Source: an uncultured Thermoleophilia bacterium (GTDB lineage Bacteria > Actinomycetota > Thermoleophilia > RBG-16-64-13). Taken from it: a stretch of 64,000 bases of DNA. Position 1 is the first letter of the stretch. The number at the start of each line of letters is the position of its first letter. Positions 42,035 through 59,109 of this stretch are shown piece by piece. The stretch covers positions 3,877-67,876 of the forward strand of contig CAVVNF010000018.1 in NCBI GenBank assembly GCA_963749535.1. Reading direction: 5' to 3'. The translations under genes were made by a program, and so were the position numbers. A model generated the notes under the pieces. That model was not told the DNA's origin. It did no database searches and saw nothing but the letters and a program-made list of their open reading frames with translations.

Positions 42035-43219
42035 TCAGACCTTGATGATCGTCGCGATGCCCTGGCCGCCACCGATGCACATGGTAGCGAGACCGTAGGT
42101 GCCGCCTTCTTGCTTGAGCGCATAGATGAGGGTAGTTAGGATCCGCGCACCGGAGGCACCGATCGGATGACCGAGGGCGATGGCGCCACCGTAGAGGTTG
42201 GCTTTCTTCAGGTCGAGCGGCAGTTCCTGTGCCACGGCCAGGGCCTGAGCGGCGAAGGCCTCGTTCGCTTCGAAGACGTCGATCTGGTCGAGCGTCATGC
42301 CCGCTTTGTCCAAGACCTTCCTGGTGGCGTAGTACGGACCCATGCCCATGTACTTGGGATCGAGGCCGGCCGATGCGTACGCAACCAGGGTGGCCAGTGG
42401 CTTGAGCCCGTGTCTTCTCCGCGTATGCCCGGGAGGCGATCACCAAAGCGCGACACCGGCGTCGTTGATACCTGAGGCATTGCCGGCGGTCACGCAGCCG
42501 TCTTTCTTGAAGGCGGGACGCAGTTTGGCAAGACCCTCAAGGGTCGTGTCACCCCGGAAGTGCTCGTCGGTGTCGAAGATCTTGGGGTCACCCTTGCGCT
42601 GGGGGATCTCCACGGGAACGATCTCCGCCTTGAACTTGCCGGCGGCGCTGGCCGCCGCGGCGCGCAGCTGGCTCTCGAGCGCGAATTCGTCCTGCATCTC
42701 TCGAGTGATGCCATAGCGTTCGGCAACGTTCTCCGCTGTTAAGCCCATGTGGATCTTGTTGATGCCGCACGTGAGCCCGTCGACGAGGACGTCGTCAACA
42801 AGGGTGGCGTCGCCGAGGCGGAACCCCATCCGCGCTCCAGGCAAGATATGCGGGGCCATGGTCATATTCTCGATGCCACCCGCAACTATCACTTCAGCGT
42901 CGCCGGCGGTGATGGCCTGTGCAGCGAGGTGCACCGCCTTCATCCCGGAGCCGCACACCTTGTTGATAGTGATCGCCGGAGTCTCCTCAGGAAGGCCAGC
43001 GGCCAGCCAGGCTTGGCGGGCCGAGTTCTGGCCCAGGCCTGCTTGGAGAACATTGCCGAGGATCACCTCGTCTATTTCTTCCGCCGCCACACCGGCCCGT
43101 TTCAGGGCCTCGGGGATGACGATCGCACCCAGCTTGGTCGCCGGGATCTCAGAGAGAGAGCCGAGAAAACGGCCCACAGGCGTGCGGCATGCACTAAGGA
43201 TCACAACATCGGGGGACAA
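42035..43219 (-). CDS. acetyl-CoA acetyltransferase (thiolase II); one frame break near 42400
   Basis: Motifs [57 protein letters not shown] start 43219 behind AGGAG. Confidence 0.9.
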
Positions 43220-43438
43220 AGGATCTCCTTTCCTTCTGCCTACAGAAATGCGGCCGTGCAAAGACATGTCTTCTTGTCTCGCGCGGCCCGAAAGAGTCTA
43301 GCTTTGGAAAAGATACCACTCCTCGCGCCCGCCGGTCCGCTGGGCGCGACCGAAGACACCGGATGGCGCCGTCTTGTTCTGACTCGTCGCCGAGGTTTGC
43401 CGCTGGAACGGACCCCTCGCAGGCTGTTCTTCAGCAGC

Positions 43439-47703: not shown

Positions 47704-47961
47704 CTAAACTTGGAGGAAGTCCATCCTCTTTACATCGACGCCATGCAAGGTTTGAAGCTCGGCATAAAACGCTTCGACCGTGGCTTCGTCCCCAAAGACA
47801 TCAAGAAGTACCAGCCCGCTCGGCGAGCAGCTCGTGGCGTCCGCGTCGTGGATACCCAGTCTGGTGCGGATGTTGCAGCCATACTTTGTGAACGTCGCCT
47901 GCACTGACGGCACGTTCTCCGTGCGATGAGTGATATGGACGCCGAAGATGTGGTGTTGCAC
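47704..47961 (-). CDS. TM1266-like small regulator (putative iron-only hydrogenase system regulator family)
   Basis: 85 aa. The pattern FGVHITHRTENVPSVQATFTKYGCNIRTRLGIH...GLVLLDVFGDEATVEAFYAELQTLHGVDVKRM resembles the ACT/NikR-C-like TM1266 family as I recall it. Confidence 0.45.
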   Translation of the reverse strand: MQHHIFGVHITHRTENVPSVQATFTKYGCNIRTRLGIHDADATSCSPSGLVLLDVFGDEATVEAFYAELQTLHGVDVKRMDFLQV

Positions 47962-48147: not shown

Positions 48148-48227
48148 TTTTGTGCGACTTTGCACTTGACTCCTATACCCGCAAAGAGTAATTTGTGAAA
48201 CACGTAACAGTGTTACTCATGTAACGG
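48148..48227. promoter_or_regulatory. three Rex-box-like inverted repeats overlapping a candidate promoter, in the divergent intergenic region
   Basis: Box C is TTTTGTGCGACTTTGCACTT (48148-48167). Candidate promoter is TTGACT (48166-48171), 17 nt, TAATTT (48189-48194). Box A is TTGTGAAACACGTAACAG (48193-48210). Box B is GTGTTACTCATGTAACGG (48210-48227). Compare the Rex consensus TTGTGAA-N4-TTCACAA / TTGTTAA-N4-TTAACAA. Confidence 0.35.
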
Positions 48228-48268: not shown

Positions 48269-49354
48269 GTGGCTCAGGCGGGAAAGCCAATAGTGTCTCG
48301 AAAGACGGTGGGGAGGCTCAGCCTCTACCGTCGGCTCCTGGATCTCCTCCGAGAGTCCGGGACCATGCATGTGTATTCCCATCAGCTGGCGCATCTGGCC
48401 GGGGTGAGCGCGGCCCAGGTACGGCGAGACTTCATGACCATCGGCTACTCGGGCAGCCCGAACCGCGGCTATGAGGTCAAGACGTGTCTCGAGAGCATCG
48501 GAAGCCTGCTCGACGGATCGGGCTGTCAGGACGTGGCTCTCGTGGGAGTCGGGCGTCTCGGCCGGTCCCTACTGGCCCACTTCTCGAACAAGCAACAGAT
48601 GCTGCGCATCGCCGTCGCCTTCGACACCGACCCAGCCGTCGTCGGCGGATCGTTGGACGGTTGTGAGATTCACGCAGTCGAGACCATCGAGAAAGTCGTG
48701 GACGAAAGAGGGATCCGCATCGGTATCCTCGCCGTGCCTCCGGAGGCAGCGCAGCCGGCGGCAGCCGCGCTGGTACGAGCCGGCGTGAGAAGCATCGTGA
48801 ATTTCGCGGCGGTTCCCCTCCGCGTCCCCGACGATGTCTTCGTGGACTATATGGACATCACGTCCGCCGTCGAGTCCGCGGCATTCTTCGCCCGGGACGA
48901 CGGCGACAAGGATTCGGCCCCTGAGGACGTGCCCGAGACCGAGATGGACCCCATCATCCGCACCATCGATTCGCTTTTGGCGAGGACGAACATGAAGCTC
49001 GAAGAATTGGCGCAAAGGATCGGTGCCCGCGTGCTCGCTCCGGGAGCCCCGGGCGGCACCGAGGTGACCAAGGTCTACGCAGGCGACCGCGTGAGCGACC
49101 TGCTCAACGAGGCATCCAACAAGACCTTGCTTGTGACCAACCTGGCGAACCTGCAGATGGTGCGGGTCGCGGAACTGATGGACGTGCCGGGTATCTGCTT
49201 CGTCGACGGGATCGACCCGGAACCGGACATCATCGAGCTCGCACGGGCCAACAACACGGTGATCCTGGTCTCACCCGTGGGAGTCTTCGAGACCTGCGGC
49301 CTTATCTTCCAGATCCTTTCCGAAAACGGCCAGAAACAGGCGGAGCCGCAATAG
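48269..49354 (+). CDS. rex: redox-sensing repressor Rex fused to a C-terminal DRTGG-like domain (361 aa, intact)
   Basis: Rex region: TVGRLSLYRRLL...YSHQLAHLAGVSAAQVRRDF...VALVGVGRLGRSLL...VNFAAVPL. About 130 extra C-terminal residues follow: GDRVSDLLNEASNKTLLVTNLANLQMVRVAELMDVPGICFVDGIDPEPDIIELARANNTVILVSPVGVFETCG. Confidence 0.85.
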   Translation: MAQAGKPIVSRKTVGRLSLYRRLLDLLRESGTMHVYSHQLAHLAGVSAAQVRRDFMTIGYSGSPNRGYEVKTCLESIGSLLDGSGCQDVALVGVGRLGRSLLAHFSNKQQMLRIAVAFDTDPAVVGGSLDGCEIHAVETIEKVVDERGIRIGILAVPPEAAQPAAAALVRAGVRSIVNFAAVPLRVPDDVFVDYMDITSAVESAAFFARDDGDKDSAPEDVPETEMDPIIRTIDSLLARTNMKLEELAQRIGARVLAPGAPGGTEVTKVYAGDRVSDLLNEASNKTLLVTNLANLQMVRVAELMDVPGICFVDGIDPEPDIIELARANNTVILVSPVGVFETCGLIFQILSENGQKQAEPQ

Positions 49355-49361
49355 CCAAGCC

Positions 49362-51375
49362 ATGGAATTCGTCTCCTACGACATAAAGAGCAGTGACTTC
49401 GACGCGGCGGGAGCGGCTTCCAGCGCCATCAAGGAGCAGCTGAAGCGTATCGGGGCGGACGCGGAGAGCATCCGGCGCACGATGATCGCAGCGTACGAAG
49501 CGGAGATGAACGTGGTGATCCACGCGCATGGCGGCCGCCTGGAAGCCTCGCTTTCGGACGACCGCCATCGACGTCGATGTGATCGATGAGGGGCCGGGCA
49601 TCCCCGACATCGAGCTGGCCATGAAGGAAGGTTTCTCCACGGCCAGCTCCGAGGCGCGGGCCCTCGGCTTCGGGGCGGGCCTGGGTCTGCCGAACATCAA
49701 GAAGAACAGCGACCGCCTGAGGGTGACCTCCCGCGTGAGCGAAGGCACCCGGGTGAGCTTCACCGTCTACCTCAAGCGAGAATCGGCGTGTGCGCCGAGC
49801 ATCGTCTCCCTCGCTGCCTCGACGGAAGACTGCCGCGATTGCCGCCGCTGTCTGGTGGCCTGTCCGACACATGCGGTGCGGGTGAGGAACGGCCGGCCCT
49901 CTGTCCTGGAGCACCTATGCGTGGACTGCACGAGCTGTATCGCAGCGTGCTCGTCGAAGGCCCTCACCGTGCGAGACGATGTCTCCTCGTTGGCGGAGCT
50001 GAAGAACATCGGCGAACTGGTCCTGGCGGTGCCTCCCGGGCTCCTTGCCAGTTGCGGAACCGGGCTTTCCCCTGCCCGGGTTCTCCAAGGATTGCGGAGG
50101 CTCGGATTCGCGGACGTCATCACCGTGGCGCCCTTTGAGCGCGCGCTCCGGCGGGCGGTCTTGACTTCGGCCAACGAGAACGCTGGGGACGGCCCGGAAG
50201 CACGGGAACTACCGATCATATCCCCGGCCTGCCCCGCCGTGGTGAACCTCATCGAGCTCAAGTATCCTTCGCTCCTTCCGCAGTTGGCACCTTTTGACTC
50301 CCCCTGGGAGGCCCTGCAGGCATCCCAGGCCGATCGCCGCGTCGCGTACGTCGTGTCCTGCCCAGGCCAACGCTCGGTACTCGTGGCCCACGAACCGGCG
50401 GACAGCGCAGGCAGCTGCGTCGAGCCAGGTGCCGTGTATCTCTCCCCCGGCCTCGTCCGCGATGCGGTCATGGCTCTTCTGGCTGCGGAGGGCCGAGAAC
50501 CCGCGACAGCCGGGCCGGCTGGAAGCGCAAAGGCGAGCGCAGAAGGCGGGGCCGACCACTCGACGGCGGACCTCGGACACGTGCTCACCGTCACCGGCAT
50601 GGAGCACGTCATGGCTGTGCTCGAGCAGATCGAGAACGGGCTGTTGACCGATGCCGAGGTGGTTGAACTCTACGCGTGCGCAGGTGGCTGCTTCGGCTCG
50701 CCGCTCCTACCCCTGGATTTCCACGTGACTGCCCGTCGTTGGGCCCAACAGGAATCGTCAACAGCCTGCTGCGGCGAAATGCCGGCAGCGCTCTCCCGGC
50801 GGCGCCCTTACGCCGCTCGTCCGGGGATACGCCTGGACCCGGACATGGCGCGCGCCATCGAAAAGCTCGGCCGGATGCAAGCGCTCACCCGTTCGCTACC
50901 CGGCAAAGACTGTGGTACGTGCGGCGCCCCCACCTGTGCAGCGCTGGCCGAGGACATCGTGATGGGGCGAGCGACGGCTGAGCTCTGCCCCTACTGCGAT
51001 AACGAGAAGGAGGCGCGGGACATGAGACTGCAGGAGCTCGTCCAGAGCTTTGGATCTCCGGAACTCACCCCCAGCGTGGCCGGCAACAACGACGCCGAGA
51101 TCGCGTACGGCTATGCCTCCGATCTGCTCAGCGACGTGCTCGCCCACGCCCCCGCCGGCGGGGTGCTCGTCACGCTGCAGGTGCACCTCAACGTGATCGC
51201 CGTGGCGAGCCACGCTGGCCTGAGGGCCGTCATCTTCTCGTCCGGCCGCCTCCCCGAGGACGACATCTCTCCCGAGGCGGCGGACGAGGGCCTCTCTCTC
51301 TTCGTGTCACCGGCGGACACCTTCGACATCGTCGGCCGACTGTATCAACTCGGGGTGAAGGGACGGGCTACGTGA
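49362..51375 (+). CDS. multidomain Fe-S sensor-like protein: GHKL (RsbW-like) ATPase + 2x[4Fe-4S] ferredoxin + HydS-like [FeFe]-hydrogenase H-domain homolog + Cx2Cx4Cx16C Fe-S motif + DRTGG-like domain; one frame break near 49560
   Basis: GHKL: EAEMNVVIHA, DEGPGIPD, GFGAGLGLPNI. Ferredoxin: CRDCRRCLVACP and CVDCTSCIAACS. H-domain-like motifs: ISPACPAVVN (L1-like, relay Cys replaced by Ala), VVSCPGQ (L2-like), ELYACAGGCFGSP (L3-like). Fe-S motif: DCGTCGAPTCAALAEDIVMGRATAELCP. DRTGG-like tail: SDLLSDVLAHAPAGGVLVTLQVHLNVIAVASHAGLRAVIFSSGRLP. Confidence 0.8.
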
Positions 51376-51396: not shown

Positions 51397-52178
51397 ATGC
51401 CTGAAGGACGGACGAGATTCCATGGCAGACCGCCTGCGACATGCGCAGCGGACTTGCACATCCACACGGCGCTGTCGCCCTGTGCGGAGCGACGAGATGA
51501 CGCCCCGCGCCATCGTGGAGGCTGCCTTGGCCCGAGGGCTTGACATGATCGCCATCTGTGACCACAACAGCGCGCGCAACGCCGCCGCCGTGCAGGAGGC
51601 GAGCGGGGAACGCCTGGCCGTTCTCGCCGGCATCGAGATAACGAGCGCGGAAGAGGTCCACGTGGTCGGTCTTTTCCCCGACGCGGCCGCGGCCGAGGCG
51701 GCGGGGTCGGAGATCGCTCCGCTCCTTGGCGACGCCGATAGCGGCTACACGGCGTTCTTCGGCGAACAGCAGGTCCTCGACGCCGAGGGCCGCGTACTCG
51801 ACACCGAGACTGCGGCGCTTGCCTTCGCCACTTCGCTCGAGGTGGACGCGGTGGTCGATCTGGTCCACCGGCACGGCGGTCTGGCGGTGGCGGCGCACAT
51901 CGACCGCAGGGCTTTCAGCGTGTTCTCCCAGCTCGGGTTCTTTCCGACCGAATCGGGTTTCGATGCGGTGGAGATCACTCCGTTCACCGGGGATGATTCG
52001 CCGCGAATGGCGGAATTCGCAGGCTCTGGGCCTGCCCATGACTGCAGCTCGTCCGACAGCCACTACCTCGAAGACATCGGGGCTGCCACGACGAGACTCA
52101 CCGTCGAAGTAGCGACCTTCGCCGAGCTGGCCCTGGCTTTCGCCGGCGCCGAAGGGAGGGCGATCGGTCGATGCATGA
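51397..52178 (+). CDS. PHP-domain phosphoesterase; frame break near 51490; 3' end uncertain
   Basis: ADLHIHTALSPCAE then a shift to MTPRAIVEAALARGLDMIAICDHNSARN...GIEITSAEEVHVVGLF...AAHIDR. Confidence 0.7.
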
Positions 52179-52668
52179 TGTGTCCCTCTATCTGCTCGAC
52201 GTCGCTCGAGAACTCAGTGCGCGCAGGCGCGACGCGCATAAACGTTGGTCTTCGCATCGACCACGCTTCCGACGAGTTGGAGCTGACGGTCGATGATGAC
52301 GGACGGGGTTTGAACGTCGACCCCTGAGCGGATCCTCGATCCCTTCTTCACTACGAAAGAAGGCAAGAAGACGGGACTTGGACTAAGCCTCCTGAGAGCG
52401 GAGGCCGAAGCAGCCGGAAGGGGGGCTCACCATCGGTCCCTCCCCCACCCTCGGTGGGGCCCGAGTAGATGTCACCATGCGCCTCGGCCACGTGGACAGA
52501 CCGCCCCTCGGCGATCTGGCCACGACTCTTGTGGTCACGGCGGTGACGAACCTAGATGTCTTGTTCACTATCAGCCTCGAGGGCGATGAGTTCGGGCAAC
52601 CACTCATCGAGGCACCGCTCACCGAAGCGACCGAACTTCTCCTGCACTGCGCGGAGCGGCTCGCATGA
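52171..52668 (+). CDS. stand-alone histidine-kinase-like (GHKL) ATPase domain protein; about 3 frame breaks
   Basis: MHDVSLYLLDV.LENSVRAGATRINVGL...LELTVDDDGRGLNVDP.RILDPFFTTKEGKKTGLGLSLLRAEAEAAG (N, G1 and G2 boxes). No DHp/His box. Confidence 0.65.
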
Positions 52669-52759
52669 GGCAGCGGCAGCCCTTACCAAGAGCGAAACAG
52701 TCGAAGCGCAGCCCAGGCCCGGGGACGCGCATGTTCAGGTCGGCCAAGGAGGCAACGGC

Positions 52760-53323
52760 ATGACGGCGGAGGCAGAGAATCGGGACGTAAAGTGCACGTG
52801 CTGCGAGGAAGCCTCGGAGGAGGAACTTCTCGCACGGCTCGACGACGTCATCGCCGGTACAAGGAAAAGCCAGGAGCTCTGATCCCGGTGCTGCAGCTCG
52901 CCCAGGGCATCTTCGGGTACCTGCCCGAGGTGGCTCTCAAGCAGGTCGCGACGCGAGCATGCGCAAGCCCTACAGCGAAGTGGCCGGCGTGGTGGGCTTC
53001 TACTCGTTCTTCACCACCGTCCCGCGCGGCAAGCAACCTCATCCGCGTCTGCCTGGGCACCGCCTGCTACGTGCGCGGCGGCATGAACGTGCTCGAGTCG
53101 CTCAAGAAGGAGCTGGGCATCGACGTCGGCGAGCACCACGGAGGACCGCGAGTTCTCGCTCGAGGTCGGCTCGCTGCTTCGGCGCCTGCGGCCTCGCCCC
53201 GGTGATCACGGTCGACGACGACGTCCACCACCGCGTCAAGCCGAAGCGCGGATCCGCGAGATCCTCGCCCAGTACGCACGCAGGAAGCCTTGGAAGCTGC
53301 CGTTGCGTGAGAGGAGCGCCTGA
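52760..53323 (+). CDS. hydC: HydC / NuoE-like [2Fe-2S] subunit of a multimeric [FeFe]-hydrogenase; about 3 frame breaks
   Basis: ATG behind AAGGAGG. Motifs KPGALIPVLQLAQGIFGYLP, IRVCLGTACYVRGG, GRCFGACGLAPV (assembled across frames). Stop overlaps the next ATG (TGATG). Confidence 0.85.
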
Positions 53324-53700
53324 TGGCCGACAAGATCAAGAGTGCCGCCGACCTGCTCGCCCTGGCCCAGAAGGCCAAGGCGGACGTCGACCTGCGCTCG
53401 GGCGCCAAGGAGATCACAGGTGACCGTGCACATGGGCACCTGCGGCATCGCCGCCGGCGCCCGCGACGTGGTGGCCGCTTTCCTGCTCCGAGCTGGCCGA
53501 GGCCAGGGCTCGACAACGTGACCGTCGCGCCAATCCGGCTGCGCCGGCCTCTGCGAGAAGGAGCCCATGGTGACCGTCACGTGACGCCGACGGCGCCGTG
53601 TACCACTACGGGCTGCTCGAGACGGAGCAAGGTCCACAAGATCGTCGAGGAACATCTGGTGGGCGGGGTCCCGGTGGACGCCTACCTCATCAAGCATCGT
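53323..53700 (+). CDS. small thioredoxin-like [2Fe-2S] ferredoxin (HndB-like); frame breaks, 3' end approximate
   Basis: MADKIKSAADLLALAQKAK...VTVHMGTCGIAAGARDVVAAF ... GCAGLCEKEPMVTV ... VHKIVEEHLVGGVPVDAYL. Confidence 0.6.
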
Positions 53701-53737
53701 AGCCGTCGATGTGGATCAGAGATCGAAGGAACCAGAT

Positions 53738-56700
53738 ATGAACGAAATCAAGAACCATGTTCTGATCTGCACAGGCGGCGGCTGCATCGCCTCCGGCGCT
53801 CTCGCGGTGAGCGCCGCCTTCACCAAGGAGCTGGAGGACCAGGGCCTCGCCGGGGAAGTCGCGGTCATCGAGACCGGCTGCCTCGGCCCGTGCGCGGTGG
53901 GCCCGGTGGCCCTCGTCTACCCCGACGGCGTCTTCTACCAGAACATCAAGGTCGAGGACGTGCACGAGATCGTGGAGGAGCACCTGCTCAAGGGCCGCGT
54001 GGTCGAGCGCCTCGTGAGCCACGCCCCAGGCACCGACAAGACCTTCGCCGAGATGCAGCGACGTGGAGTTCTTCAACCGCCAGGTGAAGATCGTGCTGCG
54101 CAACTCGGGCATCATCGACCCGCTCAAGGTCGAAGAGTACATCGCCCGCGAGGGCTACCAGGCGCTGGCCAAAGTCCTCACCGAGATGACCCCCGACCAG
54201 GTGGTCGAGCGAAGTGCTTCGCAGCGGCCTGCGCGGCCGCGGCGGCGCCGGCTTCCCCACCGGCCTCAAGTGGAAATTCGCCCGGCAGACCGAGTCCGAC
54301 GTCAAGTACATCCTCTGCAACGCCGACGAAGGCGACCCGGGCGCCTTCATGGACCGCTCGGTGCTGGAAGGCGACCCGCATAGCCTCATCGAGGGCATGG
54401 CCATCGGCGCCTACGCGATCGGCGCGCACGAGGGCTTCGTCTACCTGCGCGCCGAGTACCCGCTGGCCGTGGAGCGCCTCCAGTACGCCATCGACCAGGC
54501 GCGCGACTTCGGCCTGCTCGGCAAAGACATCATGGGCAGCGGCTTCGACTTCGACCTGGAGATCCGCATGGGCTCCGGCGCCTTCGTCTGCGGCGAGGAG
54601 ACGGCCCTCATGAGCTCCATCGAGGGTGGCCGCGGCGAGCCCCGGCCCCGCCCGCCGTTCCCGGCGGTCAAGGGTCTCTGGGACAAGCCCAGCGTGCTCA
54701 ACAACGTCGAGACCTTCGCCAACATCGCCCCGATCATCCTCAAAGGCGCGGAGTGGTTCGCCAGCACCGGCACCGAGAAGAGCAAGGGCACCAAGGTCTT
54801 CGCCCTCGGCGGCGCCATCCAGCACGCCGGCCTGGTCGAGGTGCCCATCGGCATGCAGCTGGGCGAGATCATCTACGAGATCGGCGGCGGCGTCCCCGGC
54901 GACAAGGCGTTCAAGGCCGTGCAGCTCGGCGGCCCTTCCGGCGGCTGCATCCCCAAGCAGCACCTCAACGTGCCCGTCGACTACGAATCGCTGCAGGAGC
55001 TCGGCGCCATCATGGGCTCCGGCGGCTTCATCGTCATGGACGACGACACCTGCATGGTGGACATCGCCCGCTACTTCCTCGACTTCATCCAGGACGAGAG
55101 CTGCGGCAAGTGCCCGCCCTGCCGGGTCGGCACCAAGCGCATGCTCGAGATCGTCACCCGCATCTGCAACGGCGAGGGCGAAGAAGGCGACATCGAGAAG
55201 CTCATCGACCTCGGCAAGACCATCCAGGACACCGCGCTGTGCGGCCTCGGCCAGACGGCGGCCAACCCGGTGCTGTCGCACCATCCGCCACTTCCGCCAC
55301 GAGTACGAGGCCCACATCCGCGACCACTACTGCGAGGCCGGCGTCTGCTCGACCATGTTCAGCGCTCGCTGCTCCAACGCCTGCCCGGCGAGCGTGAACG
55401 TCCCCGGCTTCGTGAGCCTCATCGGCGAGAAGCGCTTCGACGAGGCCTTGACGCTGCACCGCGAGCGCAACCCGCTGGCCAGCATCTGCGGCCGCGTGTG
55501 CTTCCACCCCTGCGAGAGCAAGTGCCAGCGCGCCGCCCTCGACGACGCCGTCGCCATCCGCGGCGCTCAAGCGCTTCATGACCGAGCAGGAGAACGACGC
55601 CGCAACTGCCGAAAGTCCTGGAAAACGCCGAGAACGCCACGCGCAAGATCGCCGTGATCGGCAGCGGGCCGGCCGGCCTCTCCTGCGCCTACTTCCTCGC
55701 CCGTCTGGGCTACAAGCCCACCATGTTCGAGAAAGAGGCCAGCCCCGGCGGCATGCTCGTGCAGGCGATCCCGGCCTACCGCCTGCCGCGGGAGGAGCTC
55801 GGCCGCGAGATCAGCATGATCGAAAGCATGGGCGTCACGATCAAGACCGGCAAGGCGCTCGGCCGCGACTTCACCCTGCACAGCTGAAAGACCAGGGCTA
55901 CGAGGCAGTGTTCCTGGGCGTGGGCGCCCCGCAGGGCGTCGAGCCTCGGCCTGCCCGGCGAGGATGGCGAGGGCGGTCAGTCGACGGCTCTCAGCTTCCT
56001 CGCGCAGTACAACGTGCACGGCGACCGCCTGGGTGGGCGAGCAGGTCGCCGTCATCGGCGGCGGCAACTCGGCCATCGACGCGGCCCGCACCGCCCTGCG
56101 CCTCGGCGCCAAGAAGGTCACCATCCTCTACCGCCGCCAGCGCGCGCAGATGCCCGCCTGGGCGAGGAGATCGACGCCGCCGACCTCGAGGGCATCGAGA
56201 TCATGCCGCTGGTCGCGCCCGAAGGAGATCGTCCGCGACGCGGCCGGCAAGGTTACCGGCGTGCTCTGCCAGCAGATGGTGCTGGGCGACTACGACAGGA
56301 GCGGCCGTCGCCGTCCCGTGGCCGGCCGCAATCCCGACTTCATCGTGGCGTGCGACCAGGTCATCGCCGCTATCGGGCAGTCGCTCGACGCAGACAGGCA
56401 TGCTCGGAGGCTCTTCCGCTCGAGATGCGCAACGGCTGGATCAAGACCGATCGGGCCGACCGGCGCCACCAGTCGTCGACTGGGTCTTCGCCGGCGGCGA
56501 CGCCGCGACCGGTCCCGCATCGGTGGTGGAGGCCATCGCCGCCGGCGAGAAGGCCGCGGTCGCGATCGACGAACGGCTGAGCGGTGCCAACCATGCGTTC
56601 TGGCGCCGCGACGTGGAGGTCGACTGCTACTTCGATCCCGACGCCGATCCCTGCAATACCCCGAGCGGCGGTCGTCGGCTGTGTCGACCCCAGCGTGCGG

Positions 56701-56822
56701 ACCTGCAGCTTCGACGAGGTCGAGCTGCCCTGGGATATGGATGTCGCGCTGGCAGAGGCCAAGCGTGCCTGCGTTGCGACTACGGCAAGGTCCCGGCCCT
56801 CGCTGAGACCAAGGAGATATGA
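53738..56822 (+). CDS. hydB: HydB/NuoF-like flavoprotein subunit fused to a GltD/NfnB-like NAD(P)H oxidoreductase domain; at least 12 frame breaks
   Basis: N-terminal Trx-like [2Fe-2S]: [15 protein letters not shown]...[10 protein letters not shown]. NuoF core: [37 protein letters not shown] continuous ORF piece runs across the junction: [82 protein letters not shown]. GltD-like motifs follow: [67 protein letters not shown]. Confidence 0.85.
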
Positions 56823-56823
56823 G

Positions 56824-58609
56824 ATGCCTGCCCTGACTATTGACGACATCAAGGTCGAGGTGCCCGAAGGCACGACCTTGCTCGACGCCTGCCGCCAGGT
56901 GGGCGCCAGGGTCCCCACTCTGTGCTACCTGGAAGGCGTGCAGTGCCATCGGCGCCTGCCGGGTGTGCCTGGTGGAGGTGGAAGGCGCGCGCGACGCTGG
57001 TCGCCTCCTGCGCTCAACCCGCCACCGAGGGCATGGTGGTCAAGACCAATTCGCCTCGCGTGCGCAAGGGCCGGCAGACCGTGGTCGAGCTGCTCCTGTC
57101 CGAGCACGACGGCGATTGCCAGACCTGCGACCGCAACGGCGACTGCGAGCTGCGCCAGCTTGCCTACGACCTGGGCATCGACGAGATCACGCTACGAGGG
57201 CGAGCGGACCCGCAAGATCGTCGACAGCTCCACCCCGGCCCTCGTCCGCGACACCGGCAAGTGCATCATGTGCCGGCGGTGCGTCACGGTCTGCAACGAG
57301 ATGCAGGGCGTGGGCGCCCTCTTCCCGCAGGATCGCGGCTTTGCCACGGTAATCGGCCCCGCGTTCGCCAGCAACCTCAGCGACGTGGTGTGCGTGCAGT
57401 GCGGCCAGTGCGCGGCCGTCTGCCCCGTCGGCGCGATCACCGAGAACAGCGCGATCGACCAGGTCTGGGCCGCCCTCGACGACCCCGACCAAGCACGTGA
57501 TCGTGCAGACCGCGCCCGGCCATCCGCGGCGCTCTGGGCGAGGAGTTCGGCTACGAGCCCGGCACGCTGGTCACCGGCAAGATGGTCGTCAGCCCTGCGC
57601 CGGCTCGGCTTCGACGCGGTGTTCGACACCAACTTCACCGCCGACCTCACCATCATGGAGGAGGGCACCGAGCTGCTGACCCGCCTGAAGAAGGCCCTGG
57701 TCGACGGCCAGACCGGTGGCGCTGCCCATGTTCACGAGCTGCTCTCCCGGCTGGATCAACTACATGGAGCACTTCAACCCGGACATGCTCGCCAACCTGT
57801 CCACCTGCAAGTCGCCCGCAGCAGATGTTCGGCGCGCTGGCCAAGACCTACTACGCCGAGAAGCTGGGCAAGAAGCCCGAGGACATCGTCGTGGTCTCGG
57901 TCATGCCGTGCACCGCCAAGAAGTTCGAGTGCAGCCGTCCCGAGATGACCGACAGTGGCGTGCAGGACGTCGACATGGTGCTCACGACCCGTGAGCTGGC
58001 GCGCATGATCAAGCAGGCCGGCATCGACTTCGCAGCCTGCCCGACGACAAGATGGACGCGCCGCTGGGCATCTCGCACCGGCGCGGCCGACATCTTCGCC
58101 GTCACCGGCGGCGTGATGGAGGCGGCGCTGCGCACGGCCTACGAGATCGTCACCGGCAAGCCGTTCCCGTTCGAGAACCTGCACGTCAAGCCCATCGCAG
58201 GGCCTCGAAGGCGTGAAGGAGGCCGCGGTGACCGATCGAGGACGACCGTGCCCGAATGGGCGTTCCTCGAGGGCGCCACGCTCAAGGTCGCCGTGGCCCA
58301 CGGCCTGGCGAACGCCCAGAAGGTCATCGACAGGATCCGCAGCGGCGAGGCGCCAGTACCACTTCGTCGAGGTCATGACCTGCCCCGGCGGCTGCATCGG
58401 CGGCGGCGGCCAGCCGCGGCTGACCTCCAACGCCGTGCGCGAGGCCCGCATCCGCGCCATCTACGCCGAGGACGAGGGCCGCGAGCTGCGCAAGTCGCAC
58501 GAGAACCCCGAGGTGCTCAAGCTGTACGAGGAGTTCCTCGGGGCAGCCGCTCGGCGAGAAGTCTCACAAACTGCTGCACACCAAGTACACCGAGAAAGAG
58601 CGCGTCTAG
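56824..58609 (+). CDS. hydA: [FeFe]-hydrogenase catalytic subunit (M3-type with C-terminal small-subunit-like tail); at least 8 frame breaks
   Basis: N-terminal clusters: IGACRVCLVEVEG, LLLSEHDGDCQTCDRNGDCELRQ, GKCIMCRRCVTVC, VCVQCGQCAAVCPVGAI. H-cluster motifs: FTSCSPGW, VMPCTAKKFE, EVMTCPGGCIGGGGQP. Tail: SHENPEVLKLYEEFLG. Confidence 0.9.
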
Positions 58610-58644
58610 TGAGCCAAGGCCCGATGCTATTCGTGGAGACAGCC

Positions 58645-59109
58645 ATGACCGCGGATAGCCCCGCACTCATACTCATCGTCGACGACGACTATGACTTCCT
58701 CGAGATCAACCGCATGATCCTCGAGCGGGCGGGTTATCGCGTTGTCACGGCTTCCGAGCCCGGCCAGGCCCTTGCCAAGATGGAGAACGAGAAGCCCGAC
58801 CTGGTCATCACCGACCTGATGATGACGAGCCTCGACTCAGGCTTCTCGTTCTCCCGCACGATCAAGACCGACCCGCGTTTCGCGGATGTGCCCGTCATCA
58901 TCTCGACGTCGGTGTCGAGCGCCCTTGGCCTCGACTTCCGGCCGCGCTCCGCCGAGGACCTGGCGAAGATGAACGTCGACGCCTACTTCGACAAGCCCCT
59001 CGACGCCCGGCGCCTGCTGGCCAAGGTCGCCGAGCTGCTTGCGGCGCGGCGCGAGGCCGCGGCCGGCCGAGCGTGCGACACGGCCGGCGCCGCACCCGAG
59101 GACAGCTGA
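58645..59109 (+). CDS. single-domain response regulator (receiver only); alternative start 58624
   Basis: LILIVDDDYDFLEI...PDLVITDLMM...VPVIISTS...DAYFDKP. Confidence 0.8.
   Translation: MTADSPALILIVDDDYDFLEINRMILERAGYRVVTASEPGQALAKMENEKPDLVITDLMMTSLDSGFSFSRTIKTDPRFADVPVIISTSVSSALGLDFRPRSAEDLAKMNVDAYFDKPLDARRLLAKVAELLAARREAAAGRACDTAGAAPEDS

What the first reader, a model, noticed from the sequence alone, without database searches (positions are those of the whole stretch)
48269..49354. Rex carries a C-terminal DRTGG-like domain that is paralogous to the tail of the adjacent hydrogenase-like sensor
The intact 361-aa ORF has a complete Rex (winged helix plus GxGxxG Rossmann) and about 130 extra residues. 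That tail aligns by eye with the C-terminus of the next protein: SDLL..(x)..LLVT/LVTL..V..A......I.F..G..P......A......VSP..F...G. Two neighbouring proteins share the same uncommon domain, one a DNA-binding NADH sensor and the other an H-cluster-type sensor. This suggests direct DRTGG-DRTGG contact as a route for an H2 signal to reach a transcription factor without phosphorylation. That is inference, but it is a concrete mechanism that can be tested.
Basis: inference. Interest (0 to 1): 0.65.

Follow-up and report, generated by a model that had tools for sequence, protein, structure and literature searches.

The report
Rex repressor fused to hydrogenase-cassette DRTGG module
A redox-sensing Rex repressor in uncultured Thermoleophilia has permanently captured a small DRTGG-fold protein that in other phyla is the first gene of the regulatory cassette around a putative H2-sensing [FeFe]-hydrogenase, which gives a testable physical link between that sensor and transcription; the "sensor tail" it resembles is really a separate small gene.

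Summary
The 361-aa ORF at 48269-49354 is real and intact. It is a canonical Rex followed by a disordered linker, a short conserved helix and a DRTGG-fold domain. The AF2 model has pLDDT 90.7, and the top Foldseek hits are the solved DRTGG structures 3l2b and 2ioj.

The tail is significantly similar to the C-terminus of the next ORF (BLASTP E=7e-16, HHalign 99.3%). However, in 69/69 complete related loci that "C-terminus" is a separate ~117-aa gene (DRTGG-B), with its own Shine-Dalgarno site and an ATGA stop/start overlap. The in-frame fusion occurs only in this window. It comes from a 2-nt difference in an assembly full of frameshifts.

The Rex fusion itself is intact in all 80 related species-level loci, all from Thermoleophilia/Actinomycetota MAGs. 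In about 70 of the 72 with enough downstream sequence it sits just upstream of the same genes. These are a SpoIIAB-like kinase fused to a sensory-type [FeFe]-hydrogenase, DRTGG-B, a PHP protein and an HATPase, then NuoE/NuoF-GltD/HydA. A Rex box lies at the promoter.

In Planctomycetes-type cassettes the orthologue of the Rex tail (DRTGG-A, ~50% identity) is a free gene in the same position. The fusion therefore looks like a Rosetta-stone link from the sensory cassette to Rex. "Without phosphorylation" is not supported. No literature match was found.

Verdict: new variant of a known kind, interest 0.6.

The parts
48166..48194 (+). Promoter-like elements upstream of rex: -35 TTGACT (48166-48171), 17-nt spacer, -10 TAATTT (48189-48194)
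   Evidence: Read from the sequence. The TTGAC(A/T)...TA(A/G)AT(T) arrangement is conserved upstream of rex in relatives. Function is inferred.
48193..48210 (+). Rex-box-like operator TTGTGAAACACGTAACAG overlapping the -10 element (degenerate 3' half-site)
   Evidence: It is the only match in the 64-kb window with <=3 mismatches, which is not significant on its own. A Rex box with <=2 mismatches lies within 200 nt upstream of rex in 58 of 78 loci, against 4 matches anywhere else in those loci. Several relatives have perfect TGTGAAnnnnTTCACA boxes, for example L034, L071 and L079.
48203..48226 (+). Conserved GTAACA-G-TGTTAC / GTTAC...GTAAC palindromic element just downstream of the Rex box; function unknown
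   Evidence: Sequence reading. GTTA(C/T)..GTAAC(G) recurs at this position in the relatives shown.
48269..49354 (+). rex-DRTGG-A fusion gene, 361 aa, GTG start
   Evidence: Intact in 81 of 81 loci including the window.
48293..48511 (+). Rex winged-helix DNA-binding domain (aa 9-81)
   Evidence: Pfam PF06971, AF2 helices 11-81, and invariant RLS.YRR and S..VRRD motifs.
48527..48853 (+). Rex Rossmann NAD(H)-binding domain (aa 87-195) with GVGRLG
   Evidence: Pfam PF02629. G93, G95 and G98 and F118-D119 are invariant.
48857..48949 (+). Rex C-terminal helix (aa 197-207) followed by an acidic, variable, disordered linker (aa 208-227)
   Evidence: AF2 assigns helix 197-207, but the whole segment 197-227 has pLDDT <50, so the helix itself is a low-confidence call. 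The linker varies in length and sequence among relatives.
48953..48988 (+). Fusion-specific conserved helix (aa 229-240, PIIRTIDSLLAR)
   Evidence: AF2 helix 229-240. P228, I233, D234, L236 and L237 are nearly invariant. It is absent from free DRTGG-A proteins.
48992..49339 (+). DRTGG-A domain (aa 242-357), orthologous to the free first gene of the cassette in other phyla; invariant YAGDRVSDLL with Ser276
49362..51021 (+). Sensor gene: SpoIIAB-like HATPase_c_2 + 2x[4Fe-4S] + sensory-type [FeFe]-hydrogenase H-domain + C-terminal four-Cys FeS domain. Broken in the window by a +1 shift near 49559 and missing its stop because of a 2-nt difference at 51022
51022..51375 (+). DRTGG-B gene (117 aa) with its own AAGGAGG Shine-Dalgarno site 8 nt upstream; a separate gene in all relatives, paralogue of the Rex tail
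51422..52200 (+). PHP-domain phosphoesterase gene
52205..52593 (+). Second HATPase_c gene (frameshifted in the window)
52858..58660 (+). Hydrogenase structural genes: NuoE-like (52858-53243), small NuoE-like (53323-53691), NuoF-GltD fusion (53738-56606), HydA (from 56824; the ~58660 end is an estimate from the ORF carrying the MPCTAKKFE motif). There are many frame switches in the window
47704..47961 (-). Divergent small CPF_0552 / TM1266-like protein (iron-only hydrogenase system putative regulator family)
   Evidence: NCBIfam NF052672 at 95.8 bits against a cut-off of 85.

Best explanation
The gene encodes a normal NADH/NAD+-sensing Rex repressor whose C-terminus has captured DRTGG-A. DRTGG-A is the first gene of a widespread regulatory cassette with this order: DRTGG-A | SpoIIAB-like kinase fused to a sensory-type [FeFe]-hydrogenase | DRTGG-B | PHP phosphoesterase | HATPase. 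The cassette precedes NuoE/NuoF/HydA hydrogenase operons.

Rex binds a Rex box over the -10 region of this same operon. The flexibly tethered DRTGG-A domain acts as a receiver or docking module. Through it the adjacent sensor, with DRTGG-B and PHP as accessory parts, modifies Rex repression. The operon therefore responds both to NADH/NAD+ (Rossmann domain) and to H2 or redox state (sensor).

My preferred mode is partner-switch-like. The sensor's kinase domain binds the DRTGG domains, and possibly phosphorylates the conserved Ser (Ser276 in Rex), and PHP reverses this.

Shown: the architecture, the fold, the orthology and paralogy, the synteny and the operator. Inferred: any physical contact, any phosphorylation, and the direction of the effect.
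For: - Fusion conserved and intact in 80 related species-level loci and in the window. At least 120 clusters at 90% identity are annotated only as Rex.
- Synteny with the sensor, DRTGG-B, PHP, HATPase, NuoE and NuoF-GltD holds in nearly all loci with enough sequence.
- rex stops 8 nt before the sensor's ATG.
- The Rex tail is 48-56% identical to free DRTGG-A in other phyla's cassettes (L081 from a Planctomycetes-annotated record, L084 from an unassigned metagenome contig) and only 25-36% identical to DRTGG-B. DRTGG-B is 48-60% identical to the B genes of those cassettes.
- A Rex box lies at the promoter in 58 of 78 loci and almost nowhere else in them.
- The DRTGG fold is confident, while the full-length pTM is only 0.41 and the linker is disordered, so the module is tethered rather than packed against Rex.
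- The sensor's N-terminal domain matches SpoIIAB (E=7.9e-13) and HATPase_c_2. It is the best conserved part of the protein, with intact N, G1 and G2 boxes.
- Ser276 is invariant within the Rex fusion clade and in the wider DRTGG-A alignment. The aligned Ser is a conserved consensus position in DRTGG-B.
- Independent precedent: Rex C-terminal fusions to receiver domains exist in other lineages, and one of them sits next to a histidine kinase.
- Literature: Rex and HydS are both proposed regulators of bifurcating hydrogenases by unknown mechanisms (PMC10084766). The interaction partners of group D sensory hydrogenases remain unidentified (PMC13104023).
Against: - No interaction was predicted or measured.
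- The DRTGG fold is not a known phospho-acceptor, and the cassette has neither a STAS nor a PP2C protein.
- The kinase-like domains could instead act on hydrogenase subunits, since HATPase2 is fused to NuoE in some loci.
- L062 keeps Rex-DRTGG-A without the sensor, DRTGG-B or PHP.
- Whether the sensor senses H2 at all is unproven. In TamHydS the C-terminal cluster is not reduced by H2 (PMC13104023).
- The window's own Rex box has a degenerate half-site.
Confidence: 0.55

Rival explanations
1. DRTGG-A on Rex forms a heterodimer directly with its paralogue DRTGG-B, which reports the sensor's state. The H2 signal reaches Rex purely by DRTGG-DRTGG contact, with no phosphorylation.
For: A and B are clear paralogues. 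They co-occur in cassettes across phyla. DRTGG domains form DRTGG-DRTGG' contacts in the crystal structure of the CBS-pyrophosphatase regulatory region (Tuominen et al., as cited in bioRxiv 10.1101/2020.04.07.028951). The B gene is translationally coupled to the sensor gene by an ATGA overlap.
Against: B is not part of the sensor, so an extra sensor-B step is needed. The conserved kinase domain, PHP and second HATPase are left without a role. L062 has Rex-DRTGG-A without B. A Rex dimer already supplies two A domains that could pair with each other.
Confidence: 0.2
2. The tail works on its own. It is an extra dimerisation or small-ligand (nucleotide or dinucleotide) binding domain that tunes Rex independently of the neighbouring sensor, and the gene order reflects only co-regulation.
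For: DRTGG-containing CBS-pyrophosphatases, but not those lacking the domain, respond to diadenosine polyphosphates, and the domain contributes to dimer contacts. L062 retains the fusion without the sensor.
Against: The tail is the orthologue of a gene that in other phyla has no Rex attached yet always sits directly upstream of the sensor gene. The fusion clade keeps the cassette in about 70 of the 72 loci with enough downstream sequence.
Confidence: 0.15
3. The Rex-DRTGG fusion is an assembly or gene-calling artefact, that is, two adjacent genes joined by an indel as happened for sensor+DRTGG-B in this window.
For: The window and related long-read assemblies carry many indels.
Against: The reading frame is open from the wHTH domain to the end of the tail in 81 of 81 loci. 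These include many assemblies with short-read-style contig names (NODE_, k141_, k127_, scaffold_). A conserved linker helix is present and no internal start or Shine-Dalgarno site was noted at the junction. There is no indel relative to L001.
Confidence: 0.02

Closest known systems
Rex redox-sensing repressors (T. aquaticus T-Rex 1xcb/3ikt, B. subtilis Rex 2vt2, T. maritima Rex 7wb3, RSP 3wg9)
   Same: wHTH domain, Rossmann domain with GxGxxG, and C-terminal helix. 29-36% identity with TM 0.69-0.78 to the solved structures. Passes the NCBIfam Rex subfamily cut-off. A Rex-box operator lies at its own promoter.
   Different: All solved Rex chains are 183-217 aa. This protein adds a ~20-aa disordered linker, a conserved helix and a 115-aa DRTGG domain after the C-terminal helix.
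DRTGG domain (Pfam PF07085): regulatory insert of CBS-pyrophosphatases (3l2b/3l31), AF1212 (2ioj)
   Same: Same fold, TM 0.73-0.74, rmsd 2.3-2.6 A. The GDR and LVT parts of the name-giving motif are kept in DRTGG-A.
   Different: Only 16-20% identity. The window's tail scores below the Pfam gathering threshold. The 'GG' is replaced (TNL). It is not associated with CBS domains. It carries family-specific invariant residues (S276, C310, ETCG).
Putative sensory group D (M2e) [FeFe]-hydrogenase systems (TamHydS; Athe_1292, Csac_1857, Teth39_1463), encoded upstream of bifurcating hydrogenases next to protein kinases
   Same: The neighbouring sensor has 2x[4Fe-4S], an H-domain with the cluster cysteines, Ala at the proton-relay Cys position, a C-terminal four-Cys FeS domain and no PAS domain. 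It lies upstream of NuoE/NuoF/HydA (PMC3561251; PMC10407848; PMC13104023).
   Different: Here the kinase-like domain is fused to the sensor's N-terminus. Phylogenetic placement in group D was not tested. The papers I read do not mention DRTGG proteins or a link to Rex.
Partner-switching modules (SpoIIAA-SpoIIAB, RsbV-RsbW-RsbU)
   Same: A SpoIIAB/RsbW-type HATPase_c_2 domain. A small protein is encoded immediately upstream of the kinase gene. A conserved Ser sits at a helix N-terminus. A phosphoesterase gene is in the cluster.
   Different: The antagonist has a DRTGG fold rather than STAS. The phosphoesterase is PHP rather than PP2C. The output is a Rex repressor rather than a sigma factor. 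Phosphorylation is entirely untested.
Rex-receiver (REC) fusions found here (P0144, P0171, P0197)
   Same: Rex core with a signal-input domain attached after the C-terminal helix. P0144 is encoded next to the presumed cognate kinase.
   Different: The input domain is a canonical two-component receiver rather than DRTGG, and the one locus examined shows no hydrogenase context.

Membership tests
Rex family | N-terminal winged-helix DNA-binding domain (PF06971) | tested here: met
   E=3.2e-13, 50 bits against a gathering score of 27. Structural match to Rex crystal structures.
Rex family | Rossmann NAD(H)-binding domain with GxGxxG | tested here: met
   PF02629 E=3.3e-17. GVGRLG, with G93, G95 and G98 invariant.
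Rex family | Curated family score (NCBIfam Rex subfamily NF003995) | tested here: met
   185.5 bits against a cut-off of 126, over residues 9-212.
Rex family | Rex operator (TTGTGAAnnnnTTCACAA) at regulated promoters | tested here: inconclusive
   The window's site has 3 mismatches and is not significant alone. Positional conservation is strong across relatives: 58 of 78 loci, some with perfect boxes. Binding itself was not tested.
Rex family | NADH-dependent release from DNA | not testable with these tools
   Needs EMSA or a similar assay with NADH and NAD+.
DRTGG domain (PF07085) | Score above the Pfam gathering threshold | tested here: not met
   20.2 bits in the full protein and 23.6 bits for the tail alone, against 25.2. 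26 of 44 family members match at E<=0.01, best 1.6e-7.
DRTGG domain (PF07085) | DRTGG three-dimensional fold | tested here: met
   AF2 pLDDT 90.7. Top Foldseek hits 3l2b, 2ioj and 3l31, probability 1.00, TM 0.72-0.74.
DRTGG domain (PF07085) | Name-giving conserved residues D-R-T-G-G | tested here: inconclusive
   DRTGG-A keeps GDR and LVT but has NL in place of GG. DRTGG-B has SDL and LVT.
Sensory group D (M2e) [FeFe]-hydrogenase (neighbouring gene) | N-terminal two-[4Fe-4S] domain, H-domain with cluster-ligating cysteines, and Ala in place of the proton-relay Cys | tested here: met
   Fer4 family hits. Alignment to HydA structures with TSCCP aligned to ISPACP and MACxGGC aligned to YACAGGC. 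The Cys-to-Ala signature is described in PMC10407848.
Sensory group D (M2e) [FeFe]-hydrogenase (neighbouring gene) | C-terminal four-Cys [4Fe-4S] domain without a PAS domain | tested here: met
   PF04060 E=4.9e-12. The motif is CGTCGAPTC-x16-C. No PAS hit was found. The domain is described in PMC13104023. The exact Cx2Cx4Cx16C spacing for TamHydS is from my own recollection.
Sensory group D (M2e) [FeFe]-hydrogenase (neighbouring gene) | Phylogenetic placement within group D, and H2 reactivity | not tested
   No TamHydS sequence or reference tree was available here. Reactivity needs biochemistry.
Partner-switching module (SpoIIAB/RsbW type) | HATPase_c_2 serine-kinase/anti-sigma domain with ATP-binding boxes | tested here: met
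   PF13581 E=1.7e-8. TIGR01925 E=7.9e-13, below its equivalog cut-off. The N box (EAEMNVVIH), G1 box (DxGPG) and G2 box (GFGAGxGLPN) are conserved.
Partner-switching module (SpoIIAB/RsbW type) | STAS-domain antagonist and PP2C phosphatase | tested here: not met
   The small proteins have a DRTGG fold. The phosphoesterase is PHP. This system is therefore not a member of the family; at most it works in a similar way.

The most novel reading that the evidence does not exclude
The five-gene cassette (DRTGG-A, SpoIIAB-like kinase fused to HydS, DRTGG-B, PHP, HATPase) is a previously unrecognised partner-switching or phospho-relay system. In it DRTGG-fold proteins replace STAS antagonists, and Rex is the transcriptional output. 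In Thermoleophilia the link is hard-wired by gene fusion. In other phyla free DRTGG-A would bind Rex or another regulator in trans. This would explain how group D sensory [FeFe]-hydrogenases signal.
Probability: 0.2. Interest if true: 0.8.

Novelty: new variant of a known kind. Interest (0 to 1): 0.6.

Why it matters
How putative H2-sensing [FeFe]-hydrogenases of groups C and D pass their signal on is an open question. A 2026 study of TamHydS ends by calling for identification of its interaction partners (PMC13104023). Rex and HydS are repeatedly named together as regulators of bifurcating hydrogenases without a known connection (PMC10084766).

A conserved gene fusion that welds one cassette component to Rex is classic Rosetta-stone evidence for such a connection. 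It also names concrete proteins and residues to test: DRTGG-A, DRTGG-B, the kinase domain and Ser276.

It further shows that the Rex C-terminus is a recurrent attachment point for input domains (DRTGG here, receiver domains elsewhere). Current annotation labels these proteins simply as "Rex" and misses the extra domain.

Tried and rejected
1. I took the sensor+tail ORF (49528-51375) at face value at first. I rejected this after comparing 69 loci.
2. The first homologue search with the tail returned only N-truncated or "standalone" close hits. This suggested free close relatives of the tail. L086 and L087 showed that these are fragments of frameshifted long-read assemblies. P0125 and P0195 are the same kind of artefact.
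3. A sequence-profile search of the tail family against PDB sequences gave only a marginal HPr-kinase hit, E=0.068. The fold search was needed to place the domain.
4. The profile search with alignment A2, meant to reach cultured Firmicutes, listed only metagenomic type-A proteins among its top 120. A locus-tag literature search (Athe_1292 and others) gave no gene-by-gene annotation. The presence of DRTGG-A/B in the TamHydS or Caldicellulosiruptor clusters therefore remains unverified.
5. Literature searches for DRTGG with hydrogenase, DRTGG with Rex, and DRTGG alone (18 papers) found nothing on this architecture.
6. The full-length AF2 monomer gave no confident inter-domain arrangement, pTM 0.41. 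No multimer prediction was possible.
7. I considered pseudogenisation of the hydrogenase operon. It cannot be separated from assembly error, but the error pattern across assemblies favours error.
Full report
**What is at the coordinates**

ORF 48269-49354(+) is an uninterrupted 361-aa reading frame. Residues 9-212 are a canonical Rex:
- Pfam Put_DNA-bind_N (E=3.2e-13) and CoA_binding (E=3.3e-17).
- NCBIfam Rex subfamily NF003995 at 185.5 bits against a cut-off of 126.
- The 39 best Foldseek matches of the full-length AF2 model are Rex crystal structures, E about 1e-17 and TM 0.69-0.78 on the target.

The AF2 model gives these elements in order:
- a wHTH domain (helices 11-81);
- a Rossmann domain (87-194, with GVGRLG);
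- the Rex C-terminal helix (197-207);
- a disordered acidic linker (208-227; the whole stretch 197-227, helix included, has pLDDT <50);
- a conserved helix (229-240);
- a compact alpha/beta domain (244-357).

The whole-chain pTM is only 0.41, so the last domain is tethered and not confidently packed against Rex. All solved Rex chains are 183-217 aa long, so the last ~150 residues are extra.

**Is the tail DRTGG-like?**

Yes by fold, and marginally by sequence. Pfam DRTGG covers the whole profile (positions 1-103 of 105) but scores 20.2-23.6 bits, below the 25.2-bit gathering score. Of 44 family members, 26 hit DRTGG at E<=0.01, best 1.6e-7, and two hit Hpr_kinase_N.

An AF2 model built from the family alignment has mean pLDDT 90.7. 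Its best PDB matches are the DRTGG domain of C. perfringens CBS-pyrophosphatase (3l2b, 3l31) and AF1212 (2ioj, deposited as "Pfam DRTGG"). These have probability 1.00, TM 0.72-0.74 and rmsd 2.3-2.6 A. HPr-kinase N-domains come next.

**Is it paralogous to the next protein's C-terminus?**

The similarity is real. BLASTP gives 32% identity over 111 aa, E=7e-16. HHalign between the two families gives 99.3% probability, E=6.7e-21 over 108 columns.

The object it resembles is not the sensor's tail, however. I fetched 80 related loci from species-representative genomes. In all 69 loci where the junction is present, the sensor gene ends at a stop that overlaps or precedes the ATG of a separate gene of mostly 115-129 aa. 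The typical sequence is ...GGAGG-N7-10-ATGA. The window reads GGGACATGAG where its 95%-identical relative L001 reads GGGACCTATGAG. Those two missing bases remove the stop and fuse the frames.

The window also has a +1 shift near 49559. This hides the sensor's real start (ATG 49362, MEFVSYDIKS...), which is in frame in the relatives. It has at least 10 more frame switches in HATPase2, NuoE, NuoF-GltD and HydA. Such switches recur mainly in other long-read-style assemblies, including L086 and L087, and are largely absent from short-read ones. I therefore treat the sensor+tail fusion as an assembly artefact or, at most, a private mutation. The Rex ORF itself has no indel relative to L001.

**How conserved is the Rex fusion?**

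The genome scan confirmed 106 matches and kept 80 loci. All are uncultured Thermoleophilia or other Actinomycetota MAGs, apart from one labelled Deltaproteobacteria that is probably mis-binned. Identity is 56-95% over essentially the full length.

The frame is open from the wHTH domain to the natural stop in 81 of 81 sequences. The stops flagged are the genes' own stops. The protein database holds at least 120 clusters at 90% identity with this architecture. Sources name them only "redox-sensing transcriptional repressor", and only the two Rex Pfam domains are recorded for them.

In the library clustered at 50% identity, the architecture collapses to essentially one cluster, P0121. The other long Rex proteins are frameshift artefacts or Rex-receiver fusions.

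**Context**

Nearly every locus with enough sequence has the same order. The gene content was typed on the intact locus L007:
- rex-DRTGG;
- HATPase_c_2 + 2x[4Fe-4S] + Fe_hyd_lg_C + FeS (about 520-650 aa);
- a small DRTGG-like gene;
- PHP;
- HATPase_c, sometimes fused to NuoE;
- NuoE-like, NuoF-GltD and HydA.

In the window the rex stop is 8 nt from the sensor's ATG.

Upstream of rex, relatives share a -35/-10 promoter and a Rex box that overlaps the -10 element. Some boxes are perfect (TGTGAATCGATTCACA in L034, TGTGAATCACTTCACA in L071). The window's subclade has TTGTGAAACACGTAACAG at 48193-48210. A box with <=2 mismatches lies within 200 nt upstream of rex in 58 of 78 loci. Only four other matches occur anywhere in these ~13-kb loci.

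**Origin of the tail**

Two standalone homologues of the tail come from a record NCBI assigns to Planctomycetes (P0093) and from an unassigned metagenome contig (P0111). Each sits directly upstream of the same kind of sensor gene, in the order DRTGG-A (118 aa), sensor (522-532 aa), DRTGG-B (116-117 aa), PHP, then an HATPase (L081) or an unannotated 140-aa ORF (L084), then NuoE, NuoF-GltD and, in L084, HydA (L081 ends before HydA would appear).

The all-against-all comparison is clear-cut. The Rex tail is 48-56% identical to those A genes. The window's downstream copy is 48-60% identical to those B genes. A against B is 25-36% identical.

The A/B duplication is therefore old, and the Rex tail is the orthologue of DRTGG-A. 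In this Thermoleophilia clade, rex has been fused to the first gene of the cassette. The fusion added a variable acidic linker and a conserved helix (aa 229-240) that free A proteins lack.

**The sensor**

It aligns with HydA H-domains from solved structures. TSCCP is matched by ISPACP, and (E)xMACxGGC by ELYACAGGC. VSCPGQR sits at the MPCxxK position. The four cluster cysteines are therefore kept, while the proton-relay Cys is Ala. That substitution is described for sensory groups C and D (A131 in TmHydS, A137 in TamHydS; PMC10407848).

The C-terminal PF04060 domain carries four cysteines and no PAS domain follows. This is the group D (M2e) layout (PMC13104023; PMC3561251). I did not place the protein in a reference tree.

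Its N-terminal domain is SpoIIAB/RsbW-like (HATPase_c_2; TIGR01925 E=7.9e-13) and is the most conserved part of the protein. The N, G1 and G2 boxes are intact.

**Mechanism**

These points are shown: a Rex core, a tethered DRTGG-A domain, strict linkage to the sensory cassette, and a Rex box at the operon promoter.

These points are inferred. DRTGG-A is the point at which the cassette's signal enters Rex. I favour a partner-switch-like mode for five reasons:
1. The gene order, with a small protein immediately upstream of a SpoIIAB-type kinase, mirrors spoIIAA-spoIIAB.
2. The kinase domain and a PHP phosphoesterase are conserved.
3. Both paralogues keep a Ser at the N-terminus of a helix. RVS276DLL is invariant in the A family, and the aligned LLSDVL is a conserved consensus position in B.
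5. Rex has independently acquired receiver domains at the same position in other lineages. One such gene lies between a hybrid histidine kinase and a receiver gene.

It needs an additional sensor-to-B step. It is also weakened by L062, where Rex-DRTGG-A is followed directly by HATPase2, NuoE, NuoF-GltD and HydA with no sensor, DRTGG-B or PHP.

**Comparison with what is known, and novelty**

Sensory hydrogenases and kinases encoded upstream of bifurcating hydrogenases have been noted since 2010-2012 (PMC3561251). Rex sites at hydrogenase promoters are well known (PMC10084766).

Searches for DRTGG with hydrogenase, DRTGG with Rex, and DRTGG alone (18 papers) found nothing describing DRTGG proteins in these cassettes or a Rex-DRTGG protein. 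NCBIfam has no model for DRTGG-A, DRTGG-B or the sensor.

I class the finding as a new variant of a known kind: a Rex with an undescribed input domain. Its value is as a Rosetta-stone clue to an open signalling question. It is restricted to uncultured organisms and rests on inference, so I set interest at 0.6.

Noticed in passing
window 52205-58660: HATPase2, NuoE, NuoF-GltD and HydA each switch reading frame several times relative to intact orthologues. The same pattern appears in other long-read-style MAG contigs and is largely absent from short-read ones. This probably reflects assembly indels rather than pseudogenes.
   Followed up: partly
P0144, P0171, P0197, P0185; locus L088 2447-3454: Other lineages carry Rex fused at its C-terminus to a response-regulator receiver domain. 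P0144 lies between a hybrid histidine kinase and a single-domain receiver gene. This is a second, independent way of feeding a signal into Rex.
   Followed up: partly
L062 6010-12964: A natural variant: Rex-DRTGG-A is followed directly by HATPase2, NuoE, NuoF-GltD and HydA. The sensor, DRTGG-B and PHP are absent.
   Followed up: partly
window 47704-47961 (-): A small CPF_0552 / TM1266-like protein (putative iron-only hydrogenase system regulator family) is encoded divergently from rex.
   Followed up: no
window 48203-48226; relatives: A conserved GTTA(C/T)...GTAAC(G) palindromic element lies just downstream of the Rex box. It may be a second operator; its binding protein is unknown.
   Followed up: no
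L038, L046, L055, L061, about 100-130 nt upstream of rex; window ~48150-48165: Many relatives carry a TTGGACAnnnTGTCCAA palindrome upstream of the rex promoter. The window's subclade has GTGCGACTTTGCAC instead. This suggests another regulator acts on the same promoter.
   Followed up: no
L004 + L024; L039 + L041: Two MAGs each carry two copies of the Rex-DRTGG gene on different contigs. The downstream context of the second copies is cut off by contig ends.
   Followed up: no
L007 9927-11219 versus L081 3527-4696: The second HATPase is fused to the NuoE-like [2Fe-2S] subunit in some Thermoleophilia loci but is a separate gene in L081. This hints that this ATPase acts on the hydrogenase itself.
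   Followed up: no
window 42035-43267 (-): An acetyl-CoA acetyltransferase (thiolase)-like gene is split into two reading frames, another probable indel.
   Followed up: no
P0093 (L081 532-888): NCBI names one free DRTGG-A protein from a Planctomycetes MAG "transcriptional regulator", although it has no recognisable DNA-binding domain.
   Followed up: no
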